From an uncultured Methanosarcinales archaeon (GTDB lineage Archaea; Nanobdellota; Nanobdellia; Woesearchaeales; DSVV01): 24,725 bases of DNA. Position numbers and translations under genes: made by a program. This document shows, in pieces, positions 1,020-7,232 of the stretch. Under the pieces are notes generated by a model, which did not search any database, was not told the DNA's origin, and saw nothing but the letters and a program-made list of their open reading frames with translations. Where the stretch lies: NCBI GenBank assembly GCA_964523155.1, contig CAZFZC010000001.1, positions 1-24,725 of the forward strand. The letters run 5' to 3'. Numbering within the stretch: the stretch's first letter is position 1; each line of letters opens with the position of its first letter.

Positions 1020-2066
1020 ATGGCTCTCACTACACGCGAATACGCCAGAATCAGGGGTGAGCTTGACTCCTGCAAAAACCCGCTGTACTTCTTCCACGAC
1101 GACCCTGATGGGCTGTGCTCGTTCCTGCAGTTATACATGTACAAGCAGGAAGGCTACGGCGTGATTGTCAAGAGCCGGCCGCTGATAGACCGCAAGTTCC
1201 TTGGCAAGGTGTCAAACTACAGCCCTGACAGGATATTCGTTCTTGACATTGCAATGATGGAGCAGGAGTTTGCTGACGAGGCCAGAACAGGCATTGTCTG
1301 GATTGACCACCACCAGGTTCAGGACCTGCACAAGGTGCTGTATTTCAACCCCAGGAAGCATGGGCACAGCAGGTGCGTATCATACCTTACGTACAGGGCT
1401 GTCAGAAAGAGCCTCTGGATTGCAGTAGTCGGCTGCATAAGCGACATGGACTGGCCGGATGACCTTGTGGGGGAGTTCAGGGAAAAATACCCCGGGCTTT
1501 TGCCCGCCTCAGTTAATGACCCAAGGGCTGCGCTCTACACGTCACCAGCAGGGGCCCTGGCCAGGATTTTCTCAAACATCCTCAAGGGCTCAAGCAGCGA
1601 TGCCATGAAGTATGTAAAGGCAATGACCAGGATAGAATCACCTTACGAAATCCTCAACCAGGATAACGCGAGGGCACGCTTCATATTCAGGAGGCACGAG
1701 CAGATAGAGCGGGAATACAGGATGCTTCTGGCACAGGCAAAAAAAAGAGTGGGGAAAAAAACTGTTATCTACATTTACCCTGACAGCAAGATTGCGTTCT
1801 CAAGCGACCTTGCAAACGAGATGGCATACCTGCACCCGGACAAGCTGGTCATAATAGGCAGGGAAAAGAACGGGGAAATCAAGTGCAGCATCCGAACGGA
1901 AAAGATGGACATACCTGCGGCAATTGAAAAAGCCCTTGCAGGCCTCAGGGGCTACGGCGGGGGACACGAGCACGCAGCCGGCTGCGTTATTGCACAGGAG
2001 GATTATGCTGCATGGGAAAAGCGGATGCGGGCAACATGGAAACGCGCGGCAGACGGCGCAGCATAG
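1020..2066 (+). CDS. DHH/DHHA1 family phosphoesterase (RecJ/NrnA-like)
   Basis: Motifs FHDDPDG, VLDIA, WIDHH and C-terminal GYGGGHEHAAG; 348 aa. Confidence 0.9.
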   Translation: MALTTREYARIRGELDSCKNPLYFFHDDPDGLCSFLQLYMYKQEGYGVIVKSRPLIDRKFLGKVSNYSPDRIFVLDIAMMEQEFADEARTGIVWIDHHQVQDLHKVLYFNPRKHGHSRCVSYLTYRAVRKSLWIAVVGCISDMDWPDDLVGEFREKYPGLLPASVNDPRAALYTSPAGALARIFSNILKGSSSDAMKYVKAMTRIESPYEILNQDNARARFIFRRHEQIEREYRMLLAQAKKRVGKKTVIYIYPDSKIAFSSDLANEMAYLHPDKLVIIGREKNGEIKCSIRTEKMDIPAAIEKALAGLRGYGGGHEHAAGCVIAQEDYAAWEKRMRATWKRAADGAA

Positions 2067-2117
2067 GCATCCCCCGGCGAGTATCCGTCTGTGCACAGCC
2101 GCCGCGCAGGGGTTAGA

Positions 2118-2125
2118 TTTATAAA
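2118..2125 (+). promoter_or_regulatory. TATA box of tRNA-Gly
   Basis: TTTATAAA about 26-33 nt upstream of tRNA nucleotide 1 (2151). Confidence 0.7.
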
Positions 2126-2150
2126 CATCCGGCAGAAACCAAAGAAACCT

Positions 2151-2375
2151 GCGCCGGTGGTCTAACGGCTACAGCCTTTTAGGAAAAGGCTGGCGAAAGC
2201 TGGTGGGTTGTCTCACTTCCTTTGCCAAGCCCACTAAGAAAGGGCTGCTGTAAATGACTGCGGCCTTCCATAATTTGCGGGGCAAATCTTGCTTCGCAAA
2301 GCGAAGCAAGCCGCATATCCGGGTTCAAAAACGGCACCGGGCTTCTGCGGGCCATTGAAAGTCCCGGCCGGCGCA
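2151..2375 (+). tRNA. tRNA-Gly(TCC) precursor with three introns: 2171-2253 (83 nt, site 20a/21), 2271-2308 (38 nt, 37/38), 2330-2361 (32 nt, 59/60)
   Basis: Removing the three segments gives a 72-nt cloverleaf: GCGCCGG TG GTCT AACGGCTA TGAC T GCGGC CT-TCC-AA GCCGC ATAT CCGGG TTCAAAT CCCGG CCGGCGC A. Each junction forms a BHB or BHL motif with central helices ACGG/CTGT, CTTC/GAAG and TTCA/TGAA. CCA is not encoded. Confidence 0.93.
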
Positions 2376-2384
2376 TTTTTTCTT
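2376..2384 (+). terminator. T-tract terminator after tRNA-Gly
   Basis: TTTTTTCTT immediately after discriminator A73. Confidence 0.55.
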
Positions 2385-2430
2385 CCTGCTTAAAGCAAAT
2401 TTTATATATAACGGCAGAAGCTCCAGGACA

Positions 2431-2661
2431 ATGGCATTTGACCCAAACCTGGACAAGGAGCTCTCAAGCGAGAGCGTGGAGTTTGAAGGAACAAGAATAA
2501 GCGTAAAAGTCATGAGCTACAACGACGGCCCGCCGAAGATGCAGCTGTCACGCGAAAACAAGAGAAATGACGAGTACGCGTTTACCAAGCTGGGCAGGCT
2601 GACAAAGGAAGAGGCAGGCGCCATCATTCCGCTTATGCAGCGCGGCCTGGAGCATATGTAA
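2431..2661 (+). CDS. Small PC4/YdbC-like single-stranded nucleic-acid-binding protein
   Basis: SYNDGPPKMQLSRE...FTKLGRLTKEEA resembles the PC4-fold pattern (SWNGxPPKxDLR...KxGxLTxEE). TATA TTTATATATA lies at about 2400-2410. Confidence 0.6.
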   Translation: MAFDPNLDKELSSESVEFEGTRISVKVMSYNDGPPKMQLSRENKRNDEYAFTKLGRLTKEEAGAIIPLMQRGLEHM

Positions 2662-2816
2662 TGGCATGCGTCCACGATTACAGGCTCCTGGAGCATGCCT
2701 TTGCGCCTGACGGCGCTAGGGTGTGGGTCTTCTTCTGCACAAAGTGCCTTGACCTGCAGGAAGTGGGCAAGTCTCCAAGGTTTCGCTACCCAAGCGACAA
2801 GCACAGGATAGGCTAG
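2661..2816 (+). CDS. 51-aa zinc-finger-like microprotein (CxH-x20-CxxC)
   Basis: Hand translation MACVHDYRLLEHAFAPDGARVWVFFCTKCLDLQEVGKSPRFRYPSDKHRIG*. The ATG overlaps the upstream stop (TAATG) and the ORF fills the gap to the rnhB promoter. It is below the ORF-track size cutoff. Confidence 0.7.
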   Translation: MACVHDYRLLEHAFAPDGARVWVFFCTKCLDLQEVGKSPRFRYPSDKHRIG

Positions 2817-2855
2817 CGCAAACTATATAACCCCCCTTGCCAATCATTCCCTGCA

Positions 2856-3497
2856 ATGAAAATTCTCGGCATTGACGAGGCGGGGCGCGGGCCCCTTATA
2901 GGCCCACTGGTAATTGCCGGCGCCCTGGTTGATGAAAAAGGCTACCCCGGGCTGCTCGCCCTAAAGCTTCGGGACAGCAAGCAGTACACTGCAAAGAAAA
3001 GGGAGGAGCTTTACCCAGCCATTGCCGCACTGCTGGAAAGCTATGAGATAATCATTGTACCGCCGTCAGAGATTGATGCTGCCCTGGCAGACCCGGCAAG
3101 CAACCTGAACTGGCTTGAGGCGCAGAAAATGATAGAGCTCTGGGACCGGTTCAGGCCAGGCAGGCTAATCGCTGACTGCCCCAGCAACAACATCGGCAGG
3201 TTCACTGAATACGTCAGGAACCGTATTGACCAAAATACTGAGCTTGTGTTTGAGCACAGGGCTGATGAGAACCACGCAATTGTGTCAGCAGCCTCAATCC
3301 TTGCCAAGGTTACCAGGGACCGCTCGATTGAAAACCTGAAAAAGGTCTACGGCGATTTCGGCTCAGGATACCTCGCTGACCCCAAAACACAGGCTTTTCT
3401 CAGGAAGGATTACAGGCTTCCAATTTACAGGAAAAGCTGGACGACCTGGAAGCGCTTGAGCAGGGAGCAAAACCAGAAACATCTCAAGGATTTCTGA
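2856..3497 (+). CDS. rnhB: Ribonuclease HII
   Basis: GIDEAGRGPLIGPLV, LRDSKQ, IADC, EHRADENHAIVSAASILAKVTRD, GSGYLAD; upstream TATA (CTATATAA at about 2823-2830). Confidence 0.97.
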   Translation: MKILGIDEAGRGPLIGPLVIAGALVDEKGYPGLLALKLRDSKQYTAKKREELYPAIAALLESYEIIIVPPSEIDAALADPASNLNWLEAQKMIELWDRFRPGRLIADCPSNNIGRFTEYVRNRIDQNTELVFEHRADENHAIVSAASILAKVTRDRSIENLKKVYGDFGSGYLADPKTQAFLRKDYRLPIYRKSWTTWKRLSREQNQKHLKDF

Positions 3498-3740: not shown

Positions 3741-6700
3741 ATGACAAGGATTAACAGGATGGTGATGAAGGGCTTTAAGTCCTTCGGCAAGCGCGTGGAG
3801 CTCGAGTTCGGGCCGCACTTCAACTGCGTGCTCGGTCCCAATGGCGCCGGAAAGAGCAATGTTCTTGACGCCCTCTGTTTTGTCCTTGGCAAGGGCTCAG
3901 CAAAGGGCCTTCGGGCAGACAAGGCTGCAAACCTTATCTACAACGGCGGCAAGAAGAAGGAGCCGGCAAAGCAGGGCGAGGTAAGCATCTACTTTGACAA
4001 CAGCAAGAAAACCTTTCCAACTGAAGATGACTTCGTGAAGATTACAAGGATAATCAGGGGCAGCGGCCAGAGCATCTACAGGATAAACGACCAGAAGCGG
4101 ACCAGGCAGGAGATACTCGACCTTCTTGCAATAGCAAACATTGACCCTGACAGCTACAACATTGTGCTGCAGGGAGACATTGTGCGCCTTGTTGAGATGG
4201 GTCCTGTTGAGCGCAGGCTGATTATTGAGGACATTGCCGGAATTAGCCAGTACGAGGAAAAGAAGAACAAGGCGCTAAACGAGCTTAAAAAGGTTGAGGA
4301 GAAACTGGGCGAGGCGCACATAATCCTTTCTGAAAGGAAGACCTACCTCAAAGAGCTCAAGAAGGACAGGGACCAGGCAATGCAATACAAGGAAGTCGCA
4401 GACAGCCTGAAACGGGCAAAGGCCACCTACAACCACCTGCGGAGAAAAGAGCGGGAAGAGAGGCTTGGGAAGCTTGCAAAGCAGATAGAAAAGCACCATG
4501 CACAGATTAAGGCGGGCGAGGAGGAGATTGCAGGGCTCAAGAAGGAGGTTGCGGAGAAGAAGAACAGGATAAGCCAGCTCACCAGGGAAATCGAGGAGAA
4601 GGGTGAGAAGGAGCAGGTCCGGATAATGAAGGACATTGAAAAGCTCAGGATTGACATTGCCACAAACAGGACAAGGATATCATCAGACGAAAACGAGATT
4701 ATGCGGATACAGGAAAGGAAAAAACAGCTCCAGGCAAGCATCTTTGAGCTGGACGAGCGGACAGAGGAGCAGGCAGAGAAGAAGAATGCGCTTGAGAAGC
4801 AGAAAGCAGAATGGCAAAAGCAGCTCGGCTATATTGAAGGCAGGATTGCGCAGTTCCGCAAAAAGCACAAAATCGAGGACTCCAACCAGATGGAGCTGGA
4901 CATGGACAGGCTGGATGAGAAGGCAGAAGCGCTGCAAAAGGAGCTTGAGTCGCTTCGCGAGGAGCAGCAGAACCTCCTGCGCGAGAAGGACAGGACAGAG
5001 ATGTACCTCAGGGGCATTGATGAGCGGATTGCAAAGGTGCTTGAGATTGAGAAGGAGCACAGGTCAGATGTTCTGAAGCTAAAGCAGAAGAGGGCCGACT
5101 TCAAGAGCACAACCCTTGAGCTAAACAGCCTGCTGAACGAGGACAGCGCGCTTGCAGCCCAGCTGGGAAATGCCAGGGCAAAGCTTGCATCTGCCCAGGA
5201 CGAGCTCTCAAAGCTTAGGGCAAGAAGCGGATCTATACAGCAGAAGCTTGCTGACTCAATTGCGGTCAAGAGCATAATGGACAGGAAGGGCTCGCTTGGA
5301 AATGTTTACGGCAGCATCTCAGACCTGGGAAAGGTACCTTCAAAATACTCGCTTGCGCTGCAGGTTGCTGCGGGGCCGCGCATAAAGAGCCTTGTGGTTG
5401 ACACGGACAAGACAGCTGCCGCCTGCATCAAGTACCTGAAGAAAAACAGGCTGGGAACAGCAGCCTTTCTGCCGCTGAACAAGATAAAGGGCACTGAAAA
5501 GGAGCCTGATGCTGCCGTGCTCAGAACCCAGGGCGTCCAGGGAAAGGCAATCGATTTGATTGACTTTGACAGCAAATTCAAAAACGCCTTCAGGTACGTC
5601 TTTGGCAGCACAATTGTGGTTGAGAACATTGATGTTGCAAGGCGCGTTGGCGTGGGAACAGTCAGGATGGTTACACTTGACGGAGACATTGTTGAACTAT
5701 CCGGCGCGATGCACGGCGGCTACCGCCAGAAGGCAGCAGGCCTTGCATTCCAGGAGAAGGAGGTTCTTGCAGGCATCAGGGAAAAGGAGAAGGCTGCAGC
5801 AGACCTTGAGCTTCTCGTTTTGGGGATAGACAAAAAAAGGGCCGACGCCCAGGCAAGGATTCAGAGGCTGCGGGAGCACAAGGCTGCACTTGAGGGAGAG
5901 ATAATCAAGGGCGAAAAGTCCCTGCACCTGGAGTCAGGCGACCTGGACGCGTCCAGAAAGGAGAAAAAGGAATATGCTGCGGCTCAGAAGGAAACAGAGA
6001 AGAAGCTTGCCGCAGTTTCGCAGAAAGTCACTTCTGCGCTAAAGGAGCTGACTTCAATCAAGGTCAGGAAGCAGGAGCTCAGAAACAAAATTTCCGAGAT
6101 GCGGAGCCCGACAGTCCTTGCAGAGCTCAACACCTTTGAGCAGAAAAAGGCAGAGCTCAAGGAGCAGCTTATACGCTCTGACTCCGAGATAAAGAGCGCC
6201 AGCATGCAGACTGCAAACATCCTTCTGCCAGAGAAGGAAAAAATAGCAAAGATACTGGGCCAGCTCGACAAGGAGGAGAAAAGCTTCACTGCGGAAATTG
6301 CCGGCCTCGGGGCAAAGATAAGGCTGCAGGAGAAGGAGCTTGCCCAGAAGGAAAAGCTCCAGAAGCAGTTCTACGGAAAATACAAGGGGCTGTTCCAGGA
6401 AAAGGACAGGGCGAACGAGGCGCTCCAGAGGCTTGAGAACAGGATTATCAAAACTGAGGAGGCCATACGGGGCAGCGAGCAGAAGAGCAATGTGCTGAGC
6501 GTGGATGCTGCCGCAATCAAGGCTGAGCTTGCCGGACTCAGGGAGGAGGCTGCAAAATATGCAGGTGTCCAGCTTTACAGGGGCAAAGGCGAAGAGGAGC
6601 TCAGGAAGGAAATATGGCAGATGGAGCGCACAATGGAGCAGGCGGGAAACATAAACATGCGCGCCCTTGAGGTCTACGACGAAATTGAGAAGGAATACAA

Positions 6701-7232
6701 CTCGCTTATCGAGAAGCAGGACAAGCTAACCCAGGAGAAGGAAGAGGTTCTCGTCATGATAAACGAGATTGAAACAAAAAAGAAGGACCAATTCATGGAA
6801 ACGTTTGGCCTTGTGGACAAGAATTTCCAGATGATGTTTGGGAACCTCACCACAAAGGGCGAGGCTTTCCTCGAGCTGGAGAACCCCAAGGACCCGCTGG
6901 CTGAGGGCCTTAGGATAAAGGTCAGGATATCAGGAAAAAAATTCCTTGACATAAGAAGCCTCTCGGGCGGGGAGAAAACCCTGACTGCCCTTGCCTTCAT
7001 TTTTGCAATCCAGGAGTTTGAGCCTGCCTCATTTTACGTGCTCGACGAGGTAGACGCTGCGCTTGACAAAAGGAACAGCGAAAAGCTGGCCGGCCTTATA
7101 GAGAGCTACTCCAAAAAGGCCCAGTACATACTAATCAGCCACAATGACACGATAATTTCCAAGGCGGACACGCTTTACGGCATATCAATGGACGAAAACA
7201 GCATGAGCAAGGTTGTCACGCTTAAGCTGTGA
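3741..7232 (+). CDS. smc: Chromosome segregation protein SMC
   Basis: KGFKSF, Walker A GPNGAGKSN, long coiled coils, hinge (VTLDGD..SGAMHGG), signature LSGGEK, Walker B/D-loop LDEVDAALD, ISHN; 1163 aa. Confidence 0.98.
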   Translation: MTRINRMVMKGFKSFGKRVELEFGPHFNCVLGPNGAGKSNVLDALCFVLGKGSAKGLRADKAANLIYNGGKKKEPAKQGEVSIYFDNSKKTFPTEDDFVKITRIIRGSGQSIYRINDQKRTRQEILDLLAIANIDPDSYNIVLQGDIVRLVEMGPVERRLIIEDIAGISQYEEKKNKALNELKKVEEKLGEAHIILSERKTYLKELKKDRDQAMQYKEVADSLKRAKATYNHLRRKEREERLGKLAKQIEKHHAQIKAGEEEIAGLKKEVAEKKNRISQLTREIEEKGEKEQVRIMKDIEKLRIDIATNRTRISSDENEIMRIQERKKQLQASIFELDERTEEQAEKKNALEKQKAEWQKQLGYIEGRIAQFRKKHKIEDSNQMELDMDRLDEKAEALQKELESLREEQQNLLREKDRTEMYLRGIDERIAKVLEIEKEHRSDVLKLKQKRADFKSTTLELNSLLNEDSALAAQLGNARAKLASAQDELSKLRARSGSIQQKLADSIAVKSIMDRKGSLGNVYGSISDLGKVPSKYSLALQVAAGPRIKSLVVDTDKTAAACIKYLKKNRLGTAAFLPLNKIKGTEKEPDAAVLRTQGVQGKAIDLIDFDSKFKNAFRYVFGSTIVVENIDVARRVGVGTVRMVTLDGDIVELSGAMHGGYRQKAAGLAFQEKEVLAGIREKEKAAADLELLVLGIDKKRADAQARIQRLREHKAALEGEIIKGEKSLHLESGDLDASRKEKKEYAAAQKETEKKLAAVSQKVTSALKELTSIKVRKQELRNKISEMRSPTVLAELNTFEQKKAELKEQLIRSDSEIKSASMQTANILLPEKEKIAKILGQLDKEEKSFTAEIAGLGAKIRLQEKELAQKEKLQKQFYGKYKGLFQEKDRANEALQRLENRIIKTEEAIRGSEQKSNVLSVDAAAIKAELAGLREEAAKYAGVQLYRGKGEEELRKEIWQMERTMEQAGNINMRALEVYDEIEKEYNSLIEKQDKLTQEKEEVLVMINEIETKKKDQFMETFGLVDKNFQMMFGNLTTKGEAFLELENPKDPLAEGLRIKVRISGKKFLDIRSLSGGEKTLTALAFIFAIQEFEPASFYVLDEVDAALDKRNSEKLAGLIESYSKKAQYILISHNDTIISKADTLYGISMDENSMSKVVTLKL

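What the first reader, a model, noticed from the sequence alone, without database searches (positions are those of the whole stretch)
2151..2375. tRNA-Gly(TCC) interrupted by three introns, two at non-canonical sites
Introns lie at 20a/21, 37/38 and 59/60, totalling 153 nt against 72 nt of mature tRNA. Multi-intron tRNAs are established in Thermoproteales and some DPANN, and require a broad-specificity splicing endonuclease such as the (alpha-beta)2 or epsilon2 types. Standard tRNA finders could miss this gene. All three tRNAs in the window carry introns (five in total).
Basis: partly seen in the sequence, partly recalled or inferred. Interest (0 to 1): 0.68.

Follow-up and report, generated by a model that had tools for sequence, protein, structure and literature searches.

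The report
Three-intron glycine tRNA gene, Woesearchaeota
This is a real glycine tRNA gene of a tiny uncultured (DPANN/Woesearchaeota) archaeon, cut into four pieces by three protein-spliced introns; the gene structure is a known archaeal oddity, and this scan has met it several times before in this group.

Summary
Observation confirmed. Window 2151-2375 (+) holds four exons (20+17+21+14 nt) that join into a perfect 72-nt tRNA-Gly(UCC). They are separated by introns of 83, 38 and 32 nt at positions 20a/21, 37/38 and 59/60. Each junction pair has bulge-helix-bulge (BHB) geometry.

Eighteen orthologous genes in related genomes carry one to three introns, at these three sites plus 53/54 and 23/24. 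A nineteenth, in G045, has none. Alleles without a given intron show exactly the predicted junctions. The intron side of the central helix co-varies with the exon.

ARAGORN and Rfam both miss the unspliced gene. No RNA data were listed, so splicing itself is inferred.

The genome and its family encode one plain alpha4-like EndA, colinear with the M. jannaschii enzyme and lacking the CSL, ASL and NEQ/ARMAN loops. RtcB is present.

Extra finding: intron 1 belongs to a sequence family that also sits in the anticodon loop of tRNA-Arg(UCG) in other Woesearchaeales. Its 27-nt hairpin module recurs in introns of several tRNA types.

This scan has already reported three- to five-intron tRNAs and such hairpin modules on other DPANN DNA. 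Verdict: new member of a known kind.

The parts
2119..2126 (+). TATA-like box (TTTATAAA) 25-32 nt upstream of the tRNA 5' end; probable archaeal promoter
   Evidence: Read directly from the sequence. A/T-rich TATA-like boxes lie at a similar distance upstream of the orthologous genes. Function is inferred.
2151..2170 (+). Exon 1: acceptor 5' strand, position 8-9, D-stem 5' strand and D-loop up to 20a
   Evidence: This stretch runs on without a break into exon 2 in the same-genus ortholog L004.
2171..2253 (+). Intron 1 (83 nt) at 20a/21. BHB central helix ACGG/CTGT, bulges CTA and AAA, inner helix of 9 bp, outer helix of only 2 bp
   Evidence: It is 79-81% identical to the intron at the same site in G009. 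It belongs to an intron family shared with tRNA-Arg(UCG) (alignment A1).
2172..2199 (+). Hairpin-plus-purine-tail module inside intron 1 (9-bp stem, AGG loop, then GCGAAAG)
   Evidence: The 27-nt pattern, with up to 2 mismatches, is found in 32 of 401 Woesearchaeales genomes with up to 6 copies per genome. The reversed control pattern gives 0 hits. There is only one copy in this genome.
2254..2270 (+). Exon 2: A21, D-stem 3' strand, position 26, anticodon stem 5' strand and anticodon loop up to A37 (anticodon TCC at 2267-2269)
2271..2308 (+). Intron 2 (38 nt) at the canonical 37/38 site. Central helix CTTC/GAAG, 3' bulge CAA closed by the anticodon stem. The 5' bulge CAT opens into a 5x2 internal loop before a 12-bp hairpin
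2309..2329 (+). Exon 3: A38, anticodon stem 3' strand, 4-nt variable loop, T-stem 5' strand and T-loop up to A59
   Evidence: Exons 2, 3 and 4 are contiguous in the same-genus ortholog L016.
2330..2361 (+). Intron 3 (32 nt) at 59/60 in the T-loop. Central helix TTCA/TGAA, bulges AAA and AGT, outer helix is the 5-bp T-stem, inner helix interrupted by one mismatch
   Evidence: In orthologs TTCA/TGAA co-varies with TTCG/CGAA.
2362..2375 (+). Exon 4: U60, T-stem 3' strand, acceptor 3' strand, discriminator A73. No CCA is encoded
2376..2381 (+). Run of six T directly after the discriminator; probable transcription stop
   Evidence: T-runs follow most of the orthologs printed. Function is inferred.
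22470..22595 (-). tRNA-Ser(GCU) with one 41-nt intron at the canonical site (context for the claim of five introns in three tRNAs)
   Evidence: ARAGORN with introns allowed; BHB removal followed by ARAGORN; Rfam tRNA model 40.7 bits.
22695..22798 (+). tRNA with anticodon CAU (initiator-like, A1-U72) and an insert of about 31 nt in the anticodon loop. ARAGORN mislabels it Ser(cga)
   Evidence: Rfam tRNA model 48.4 bits with a 31-nt insertion.

Best explanation
Window 2151-2375 is the only detectable tRNA-Gly(UCC) gene of a Woesearchaeota (DPANN) genome, and three BHB introns interrupt it. It is probably transcribed from the TATA-like box at 2119-2126 to the T-run at 2376. In the precursor, each intron pairs four of its 3'-proximal bases with the last exon bases before its 5' splice site. 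This builds a 4-bp helix flanked by two 3-nt bulges. The splicing endonuclease EndA cuts in each bulge, six cuts in all. RtcB then joins the four exons and probably circularises the introns. CCA is added afterwards, because it is not encoded. Shown here: the exon and intron anatomy, the BHB geometry, conservation and covariation across orthologs, and the presence of EndA and RtcB genes. Inferred: transcription, cleavage and ligation themselves. The endonuclease is most likely a homotetrameric alpha4-type enzyme without any of the three insertions so far linked to broad specificity. Intron 1 is a copy of an intron family that has moved between tRNA genes and positions in Woesearchaeales.
For: The joined exons form a perfect 72-nt cloverleaf with anticodon UCC and A73. 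All three junction pairs show a 4/4 central helix and 3-nt bulges. The unconstrained MFE fold of the 225-nt precursor recovers the acceptor, D, anticodon and T stems together with the BHB-like elements, z = -4.4. Eighteen orthologous loci each give a 72-nt ARAGORN tRNA-Gly(tcc) once their BHB-defined introns are removed. They hold 33 introns in total, at 20a/21 (11 genes), 37/38 (9), 59/60 (7), 53/54 (3) and 23/24 (1), and 31 of the 33 have a 4/4 central helix. Same-genus alleles L004 and L016 lack intron 1, or introns 2 and 3, and show the predicted junctions. An intronless ortholog in G045 scores 65.1 bits with the Rfam tRNA model. Exon and intron co-vary: ACGG/CCGT, ATGG/CCAT and GTGG/CCAC at 20a/21, and TTCA/TGAA versus TTCG/CGAA at 59/60. 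No second tRNA-Gly(UCC) was found by BLAST of the mature sequence against the assembly, and ARAGORN finds only Gly(CCC) and Gly(GCC) elsewhere. EndA lies at G000:C31:7129-7656(-) and RtcB at G000:C155:1068-2357(-). A second sequencing run of the source sample reproduces the DNA.
Against: No RNA run was listed for this stretch, so neither transcription nor any spliced junction has been seen. None of the three BHBs is textbook-strict. The outer helix of intron 1 is only 2 bp, one of them G-U, and it competes with the normal D-stem register. The 5' bulges of introns 2 and 3 are closed weakly. The only EndA found is of a type that the literature describes as restricted to strict BHB motifs (PMC5829648, PMC6379350). 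The assembly is about 90% complete, so a second tRNA-Gly(UCC) or a second EndA subunit cannot be fully excluded.
Confidence: 0.93

Rival explanations
1. The gene is a dead tRNA gene, disrupted by insertions of a small hairpin element, and its function is supplied from elsewhere.
For: Intron 1 carries a dispersed hairpin module. In other genomes the same module lies beside intact tRNAs with about 20-nt duplications of tRNA sequence, which looks like plain insertion (L119, L127 and L128). No RNA evidence exists.
Against: All four exons are intact and close to the intronless ortholog. The insert ends carry bases complementary to the local exon, with covariation across 18 orthologs. No other tRNA-Gly(UCC) is in the assembly. 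Introns sit at the same three sites throughout the order, which is the pattern of maintained, functional genes.
Confidence: 0.03
2. Splicing needs a broad-specificity (alpha-beta)2 or epsilon2 endonuclease, whose second subunit or gene was missed.
For: The three BHBs are somewhat relaxed. Published work ties relaxed motifs to (alpha-beta)2 and epsilon2 enzymes carrying specific loops (PMC5829648, PMC3488258). The assembly is about 90% complete.
Against: There is one PF01974 hit and one PF02778 hit, both in the same 177-aa ORF, and no paralog at E<=10. There is one strong hit per genome in 25 of 28 family genomes, including the single-contig genome G002. The N. equitans beta subunit is detectable from this query at E=1e-13, so a comparable beta subunit should have been seen. 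All 87 Woesearchaeal EndA homologs examined have the M. jannaschii spacing of 10 residues between the catalytic Tyr and His.
Confidence: 0.05
3. The three-intron arrangement is an assembly artefact that joins pieces from different strains.
For: The genome is a metagenome bin of 212 contigs. A contig from another organism in run X4 carries a related gene with different intron content.
Against: A 13.5-kb contig of run X1 spans the stretch without any difference. Two contigs of a separate run of the same sample (X3) cover 1965-2600 identically. Three-intron versions also occur in independent assemblies G028 and G017.
Confidence: 0.01

Closest known systems
Multiple-intron tRNA genes of Thermoproteales (Sugahara et al. 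2008 and Fujishima et al. 2010, as cited in 10.64898/2026.10.13.758758; review PMC4090602 listed but not read)
   Same: Up to three BHB introns in one tRNA gene, at canonical and non-canonical sites including the D- and T-loops. Related intron sequences recur in different tRNA genes and positions, which has been read as intron transposition.
   Different: The lineage is DPANN (Woesearchaeales), not Crenarchaeota. The endonuclease is a single alpha-type gene without the Crenarchaea-specific loop, not an (alpha-beta)2 enzyme. In this genome the intron-1 family has only one copy; the sharing between tRNA types is seen across genomes, and within G350.
Disrupted tRNA genes of DPANN archaea with alpha4-type EndA (Kaneta et al. 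2018, PMC5829648)
   Same: That paper surveyed a Woesearchaeote among other DPANN genomes. [quoted passage not shown]
   Different: The paper links this to an L3 (Nanoarchaea/ARMAN-2) loop. I take that loop to be the insertion between the catalytic Tyr and His. The EndA here and 86 relatives show no such insertion. This specific gene and its ortholog series are not described there.
T-loop and D-arm introns processed by ARMAN-2 epsilon2 EndA and M. kandleri (alpha-beta)2 EndA (PMC3488258, PMC5829648)
   Same: Relaxed BHB introns in the T-loop (ARMAN-2 pre-tRNA-Cys) and in the D-arm (M. kandleri pre-tRNA-Glu), alongside a canonical intron in the same precursor.
   Different: Those enzymes have three-unit or two-subunit architectures. 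The M. kandleri enzyme, which lacks the loops, cuts its D-arm intron poorly. Here a loop-less single-subunit enzyme would have to handle three sites.
Earlier findings of this scan on other DPANN DNA (e1-5116711, e1-4878265, e1-5041552, e1-2798840; hairpin modules e1-3320498, e1-3203244, e1-3379381)
   Same: Three- to five-intron tRNA genes in Woesearchaeota, with orthologs carrying fewer introns. Also a hairpin-plus-purine-tail module shared by introns of different tRNAs and found outside tRNAs.
   Different: This is a different tRNA (Gly-UCC) in a different genome. I did not check whether my module is the same sequence family as theirs.

Membership tests
Archaeal BHB (EndA-dependent) tRNA introns / multiple-intron tRNA genes | Removing the inserts restores a canonical cloverleaf tRNA | tested here: met
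   ARAGORN calls tRNA-Gly(tcc), 72 nt, on the joined exons. The intronless ortholog scores 65.1 bits with Rfam RF00005.
Archaeal BHB (EndA-dependent) tRNA introns / multiple-intron tRNA genes | Each intron is bounded by two 3-nt bulges separated by a 4-bp helix formed between exon and intron | tested here: met
   All three introns have a 4/4 central helix and 3-nt bulges. The flanking helices are partly weak: h=2 for intron 1, and an interrupted h' for introns 2 and 3. The motifs are therefore best called mildly relaxed.
Archaeal BHB (EndA-dependent) tRNA introns / multiple-intron tRNA genes | The splice-site pairing is maintained in evolution | tested here: met
   31 of 33 ortholog introns have a 4/4 central helix. 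Compensatory exon/intron changes occur at 20a/21, 53/54 and 59/60.
Archaeal BHB (EndA-dependent) tRNA introns / multiple-intron tRNA genes | The genome encodes the splicing endonuclease and the RtcB ligase | tested here: met
   EndA (PF01974 at 4.8e-30, PF02778 at 8.1e-15) and RtcB (PF01139 at 3.1e-171).
Archaeal BHB (EndA-dependent) tRNA introns / multiple-intron tRNA genes | Spliced mature tRNA and excised (circular) introns are observed | not testable with these tools
   No RNA run was listed for the stretch.
Transposed tRNA intron families (Thermoproteales type) | Clearly related intron sequences occur in different tRNA genes and/or at different positions, with splice-site-proximal bases adapted to each host | tested here: met
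   Alignment A1 has 83% mean column identity between the Gly(UCC) 20a/21 introns (G000, G009, G350) and the Arg(UCG) 37/38 introns (G260, G350, G383). The 3' tails differ, CTGT-AA versus GAAG-GG, and match the local exon. The hosts were confirmed with ARAGORN for G260 and G350; G383 was assigned by similarity after my splice gave Pro(cgg). Within G000 itself there is only one copy.
alpha4-type (homotetrameric) EndA | A single gene of about 170-180 aa with N- and C-terminal EndA domains and the catalytic Tyr/His/Lys | tested here: met
   The ORF is 177 aa. It matches TIGR00324 at 114.7 bits against a cut-off of 59.6. It aligns almost without gaps to 1a79 over residues 32-177, with Y, H and K conserved.
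alpha4-type (homotetrameric) EndA | Assembles as a homotetramer | not testable with these tools
   Inferred only from the absence of a second subunit gene.
(alpha-beta)2-type EndA | A separate structural beta subunit gene | tested here: not met
   No paralog at E<=10 in this genome. One hit above the cut-off per genome in 25 of 28 family genomes.
epsilon2-type EndA (ARMAN-2) | A three-unit polypeptide of about 395 aa with the ASL loop | tested here: not met
   The protein is 177 aa. The alignment to 4fz2 shows gaps at the ASL (residues 158-168 of ARMAN-2) and at the 240-247 loop (loop definitions from PMC3488258).

The most novel reading that the evidence does not exclude
Woesearchaeales maintain many non-canonical and mildly relaxed BHB introns using a plain alpha4-type EndA that lacks all three insertions (CSL, ASL, NEQ/ARMAN loop) currently held responsible for broad substrate specificity. 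At least some of these introns, intron 1 here among them, are copies of a small hairpin-cored element that moves between tRNA genes and loop positions and adapts only its last six bases to the new host site. If so, the rule that EndA architecture and loops co-evolve with intron diversity does not hold in this lineage, and there is a natural system for studying how BHB introns are gained.
Probability: 0.45. Interest if true: 0.6.

Novelty: new member of a known kind. Interest (0 to 1): 0.36.

Why it matters
By itself this gene adds one more documented case of a multi-intron tRNA. It also shows that automatic annotation of DPANN genomes will report tRNA-Gly(UCC) as missing. The wider value lies in three things:

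- The ortholog series, in which the same gene carries zero to three introns at fixed sites.
- The evidence that intron 1 is homologous to an anticodon-loop intron of another tRNA.
- The mismatch between a loop-less single-subunit endonuclease and mildly relaxed, non-canonical splice sites.

Together these make the lineage a good test bed for how tRNA introns are gained and lost, and for what really sets EndA substrate range.

Tried and rejected
- ARAGORN default, ARAGORN with introns allowed, and Rfam at gathering score or at E<=10 all fail on the unspliced gene.
- I looked for a known RNA inside the introns, such as a C/D box sRNA. There is no Rfam match better than E=0.23 in 2000-2500 and no C-box sequence by eye.
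- I searched for paralogs of the three introns in this genome. Only short chance-level matches turned up.
- I attempted a genome-wide census by removing BHB candidates and running ARAGORN. Single removal recovered several extra intron-containing tRNAs. Double removal with introns allowed gave mostly false positives. The two apparent extra 'tRNA-Gly tcc' hits were not supported: the one on C15 was inspected and is junk, and neither it nor the one on C55, which was not inspected, passes the strict acceptor/T-arm filter. The census also missed the target gene, because I capped the middle exon at 60 nt. It is therefore indicative only.
- Masking long ORFs to shrink the search space hid known tRNAs and was dropped.
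- The D-region junction of the second candidate three-interruption tRNA (C177) could not be resolved.
- An automatic search for the tRNA hosts of the hairpin module failed for most loci. I identified the hosts by hand and confirmed most of them with ARAGORN.
- The search for RNA sequencing runs listed none.

Full report
**What is there**

The window is contig C1 of a 1.23-Mb, 212-contig assembly that is about 90% complete. The closest relatives of its EndA protein come from assemblies mostly titled Candidatus Woesearchaeota, Nanoarchaeota or Nanobdellota, and many others carry an 'uncultured Methanosarcinales' title, so I take it as a DPANN archaeon of the order Woesearchaeales.

At 2151-2375 on the + strand, four segments of 20, 17, 21 and 14 nt join into a 72-nt sequence. 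ARAGORN folds it as a standard tRNA-Gly with anticodon UCC, a 7-bp acceptor stem, discriminator A73 and no encoded CCA. The three inserts are:

| Intron | Coordinates | Length | Position |
|---|---|---|---|
| 1 | 2171-2253 | 83 nt | 20a/21 |
| 2 | 2271-2308 | 38 nt | 37/38 |
| 3 | 2330-2361 | 32 nt | 59/60 |

A TATA-like box (2119-2126) lies 25-32 nt upstream, and six T residues follow the discriminator.

**Is it more than chance?**

I scanned every possible pair of junctions inside the 225 nt for BHB geometry. The test asked for the last six exon bases to be a 4-nt helix strand plus two bulge bases, the last six intron bases likewise, and the two 4-nt strands to be complementary. The three junction pairs predicted from tRNA homology are among the eight best candidates, each with a 4/4 central helix.

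- Intron 1: ACGG/CTGT, with a 9-bp inner helix.
- Intron 2: CTTC/GAAG, closed by the anticodon stem.
- Intron 3: TTCA/TGAA, closed by the T-stem.

Across the whole genome, 302,471 junction pairs meet the same criterion. By my arithmetic that is about 6.5e-4 of all pairs of 11-200 nt. Three hits at positions fixed beforehand are therefore not chance. The unconstrained fold of the precursor recovers the four tRNA stems and the BHB-like elements, at -101.4 kcal/mol and z = -4.4.

The motifs are not textbook-strict. The outer helix of intron 1 is only A-U plus U-G, and it competes with the normal D-stem register. The 5' bulge of intron 2 opens into a 5x2 internal loop before a 12-bp hairpin. The inner helix of intron 3 has a mismatch after its first pair.

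**Comparative evidence**

A BLAST of the region against 60 relatives found pieces of the exons at variable spacing. A spliced alignment followed by BHB refinement recovered 18 orthologous genes, this one included. After intron removal every one gives a 72-nt ARAGORN tRNA-Gly(tcc). Together they hold 33 introns:

| Site | Genes with an intron there |
|---|---|
| 20a/21 | 11 |
| 37/38 | 9 |
| 59/60 | 7 |
| 53/54 | 3 |
| 23/24 | 1 |

Of the 33 introns, 31 have a 4/4 central helix. Three-intron versions occur in three genomes (G000, G028, G017).

Same-genus genomes differ in which introns they hold. G001 lacks intron 1, G003 lacks introns 2 and 3, and G002 lacks intron 3. Their uninterrupted sequences read exactly as the predicted junctions. 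A fully intronless ortholog in G045 scores 65.1 bits with the Rfam tRNA model.

The intron strand of the central helix follows the exon. At 20a/21 the pairs are ACGG/CCGT, ATGG/CCAT and GTGG/CCAC. At 59/60, TTCA/TGAA alternates with TTCG/CGAA. This is the strongest indirect evidence that the BHBs are used.

**Is the gene needed?**

ARAGORN and the Rfam model find tRNA-Gly(CCC) and tRNA-Gly(GCC) elsewhere in the assembly, but no other UCC isoacceptor. A BLAST of the mature sequence finds only this locus. The two 'tRNA-Gly tcc' calls from my double-removal census lack support. The one on C15 folds poorly on inspection. Neither it nor the one on C55 passes the strict filter. The DNA is reproduced without any difference in a second run of the source sample. 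No RNA run was listed, so splicing remains inferred.

**The enzyme**

Pfam models for both EndA domains hit a single ORF of 177 aa, which lies next to an RNase Z gene. No paralog appears at E<=10. In 25 of 28 genomes of the family there is exactly one hit above the family's cut-off, including a single-contig genome.

The protein aligns almost without gaps to the M. jannaschii alpha4 enzyme (1a79). Compared with the loop-bearing enzymes it shows gaps at three places (loop definitions from PMC3488258):

- where S. tokodaii alpha carries the Crenarchaea-specific loop (CSL);
- where ARMAN-2 carries the ASL;
- where N. equitans alpha and ARMAN-2 carry an insertion between the catalytic Tyr and His.

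All 87 Woesearchaeal homologs examined keep the M. jannaschii spacing of 10 residues at that last place. RtcB is present.

Kaneta et al. 2018 (PMC5829648) already noted alpha4-type EndAs in DPANN lineages with heavily disrupted tRNA genes, but tied this to an L3 loop. If L3 is the Tyr-His insertion, this lineage lacks it.

**Intron 1 is not unique to this gene**

A search of 400 genomes of the order with the 83-nt intron found full-length relatives at 74-80% identity in other families. Alignment A1 has 83% mean column identity. It joins the D-loop introns of tRNA-Gly(UCC) in G000, G009 and G350 with anticodon-loop introns of tRNA-Arg(UCG) in G260, G350 and G383. ARAGORN confirmed the Arg(UCG) hosts for G260 and G350. 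G383 is assigned by similarity, because my first splice there was off by two bases.

Only the last few bases differ between the two groups, and they match the local exon: CTGT-AA pairs with ACGG in the D-loop, and GAAG-GG pairs with CUUC in the anticodon loop. The long-range inner helix is kept by compensatory changes.

The first 27 nt form a 9-bp hairpin plus a purine tail. This module occurs in 32 of 401 genomes sampled, with up to six copies per genome, and the reversed control pattern gives none. Its settings include:

- introns of tRNA-Gly(CCC) at 37/38, and of tRNA-Val(UAC) and (by eye) tRNA-Arg(GCG) at 59/60;
- two of the three introns of a tRNA-Arg(UCG) in G350;
- sites next to intact tRNAs, flanked by about 20-nt duplications of tRNA sequence;
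- a repeated structured element of about 250 nt in G100 and G137 that has no Rfam match.

This is the intron-transposition pattern known from Thermoproteales. The papers I searched do not report it for DPANN. This scan has reported it on other DPANN DNA. In the full-length family the splice-competent long-range helix is better conserved than the local hairpin.

**Context in this genome**

Standard tools find only 28 tRNAs. Removing BHB candidates recovered more intron-containing genes:

- Val(CAC) with a 59/60 intron (passes my strict filter);
- Leu(CAA) with two introns (passes my strict filter);
- Arg(UCG) with a D-loop intron (does not pass the strict filter);
- an Ile(GAU)-like gene on C177, interrupted in the D-region, the anticodon loop and the T-loop. 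Its D-region junction is unresolved, so whether it is a true three-intron gene is open.

**Verdict**

Multi-intron tRNAs are established in Thermoproteales and have been noted for DPANN. This scan has already confirmed three- to five-intron tRNAs in Woesearchaeota. This is therefore a new member of a known kind.

Two points deserve attention beyond the gene itself: the loop-less single-subunit endonuclease, and the membership of intron 1 in a family shared between tRNA types.

Noticed in passing
L114, L116, L124, L125 (G137:C36, G100:C63, G100:C2, G137:C31): A repeated structured element, at least about 130 nt and up to about 250 nt, begins with the same hairpin module as intron 1. It continues with hairpins that show compensatory changes between two distant families, for example GGGAC/GTCCC versus CGGGC/GCCCG. 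It is not a tRNA and has no Rfam match at E<=0.01.
   Followed up: partly
L119 (G203:C25), L127 (G203:C87), L128 (G240:C1): The hairpin module lies just outside intact tRNA genes. It is flanked by a 20-24-nt imperfect duplicate of the adjacent tRNA end (5' end in L119 and L127, 3' end in L128). This looks like an insertion with target duplication rather than an intron.
   Followed up: partly
L122 (G350:C60, minus strand): A tRNA-Arg(UCG) with three introns of 64, 82 and 65 nt in the D-, anticodon- and T-loops. Two of the three carry the hairpin module. ARAGORN calls Arg(tcg) after splicing.
   Followed up: yes
G000:C177:1965-2143 (-): A second heavily interrupted tRNA in this genome, Ile(GAU)-like. 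It has an 18-nt anticodon-loop insert, a 45-nt T-loop insert at 59/60 and an insert of about 37-45 nt in the D-region whose exact junction I could not resolve.
   Followed up: partly
G000:C59:3908-4032 (+), C163:658-752 (+), C123:423-535 (-), C191:1418-1593 (-): Further tRNAs with non-canonical or multiple introns, all missed or mislabelled by standard ARAGORN: Leu(CAA) with two introns, Val(CAC) with a 59/60 intron, Arg(UCG) with a D-loop intron, and Asn(GUU) with two introns. Only the Leu(CAA) and Val(CAC) calls passed my strict filter.
   Followed up: partly
window 22695-22798 (+): ARAGORN labels this Ser(cga) with a 29-nt intron. The Rfam alignment shows anticodon CAU and an A1-U72 initiator-like acceptor with a 31-nt insert. 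Several other ARAGORN 'Ser', 'Phe' and 'Pro' calls in this genome change identity once the intron is placed by BHB (for example His, Ala, Val).
   Followed up: partly
window 2179-2247: A second BHB-like arrangement is nested inside intron 1: central helix TTAG/CTAA, bulges GAA and GAA, a 7-bp outer helix, predicted cuts after 2184 and before 2240. It may be chance or a trace of the inserted module.
   Followed up: no
G000:C31 (L021 1474-2007 minus strand and 2078-2974 plus strand): The EndA gene is adjacent to, and divergently oriented from, a metallo-beta-lactamase-fold ORF that looks like RNase Z. Two tRNA-processing genes are thus paired.
   Followed up: no
window 1020-2066, 2856-3497, 3741-7232 (+): The neighbours of the tRNA gene are a weak RecJ/DHH-family match (below cut-off), RNase HII and SMC. 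This is ordinary housekeeping context, with no mobile-element genes next to the tRNA.
   Followed up: partly
run X4, contig record 7: Another organism in the same study carries a related tRNA-Gly gene. It matches only the first 21 and last 27 bases of the stretch, with 90 other letters in between, so its intron content differs.
   Followed up: no
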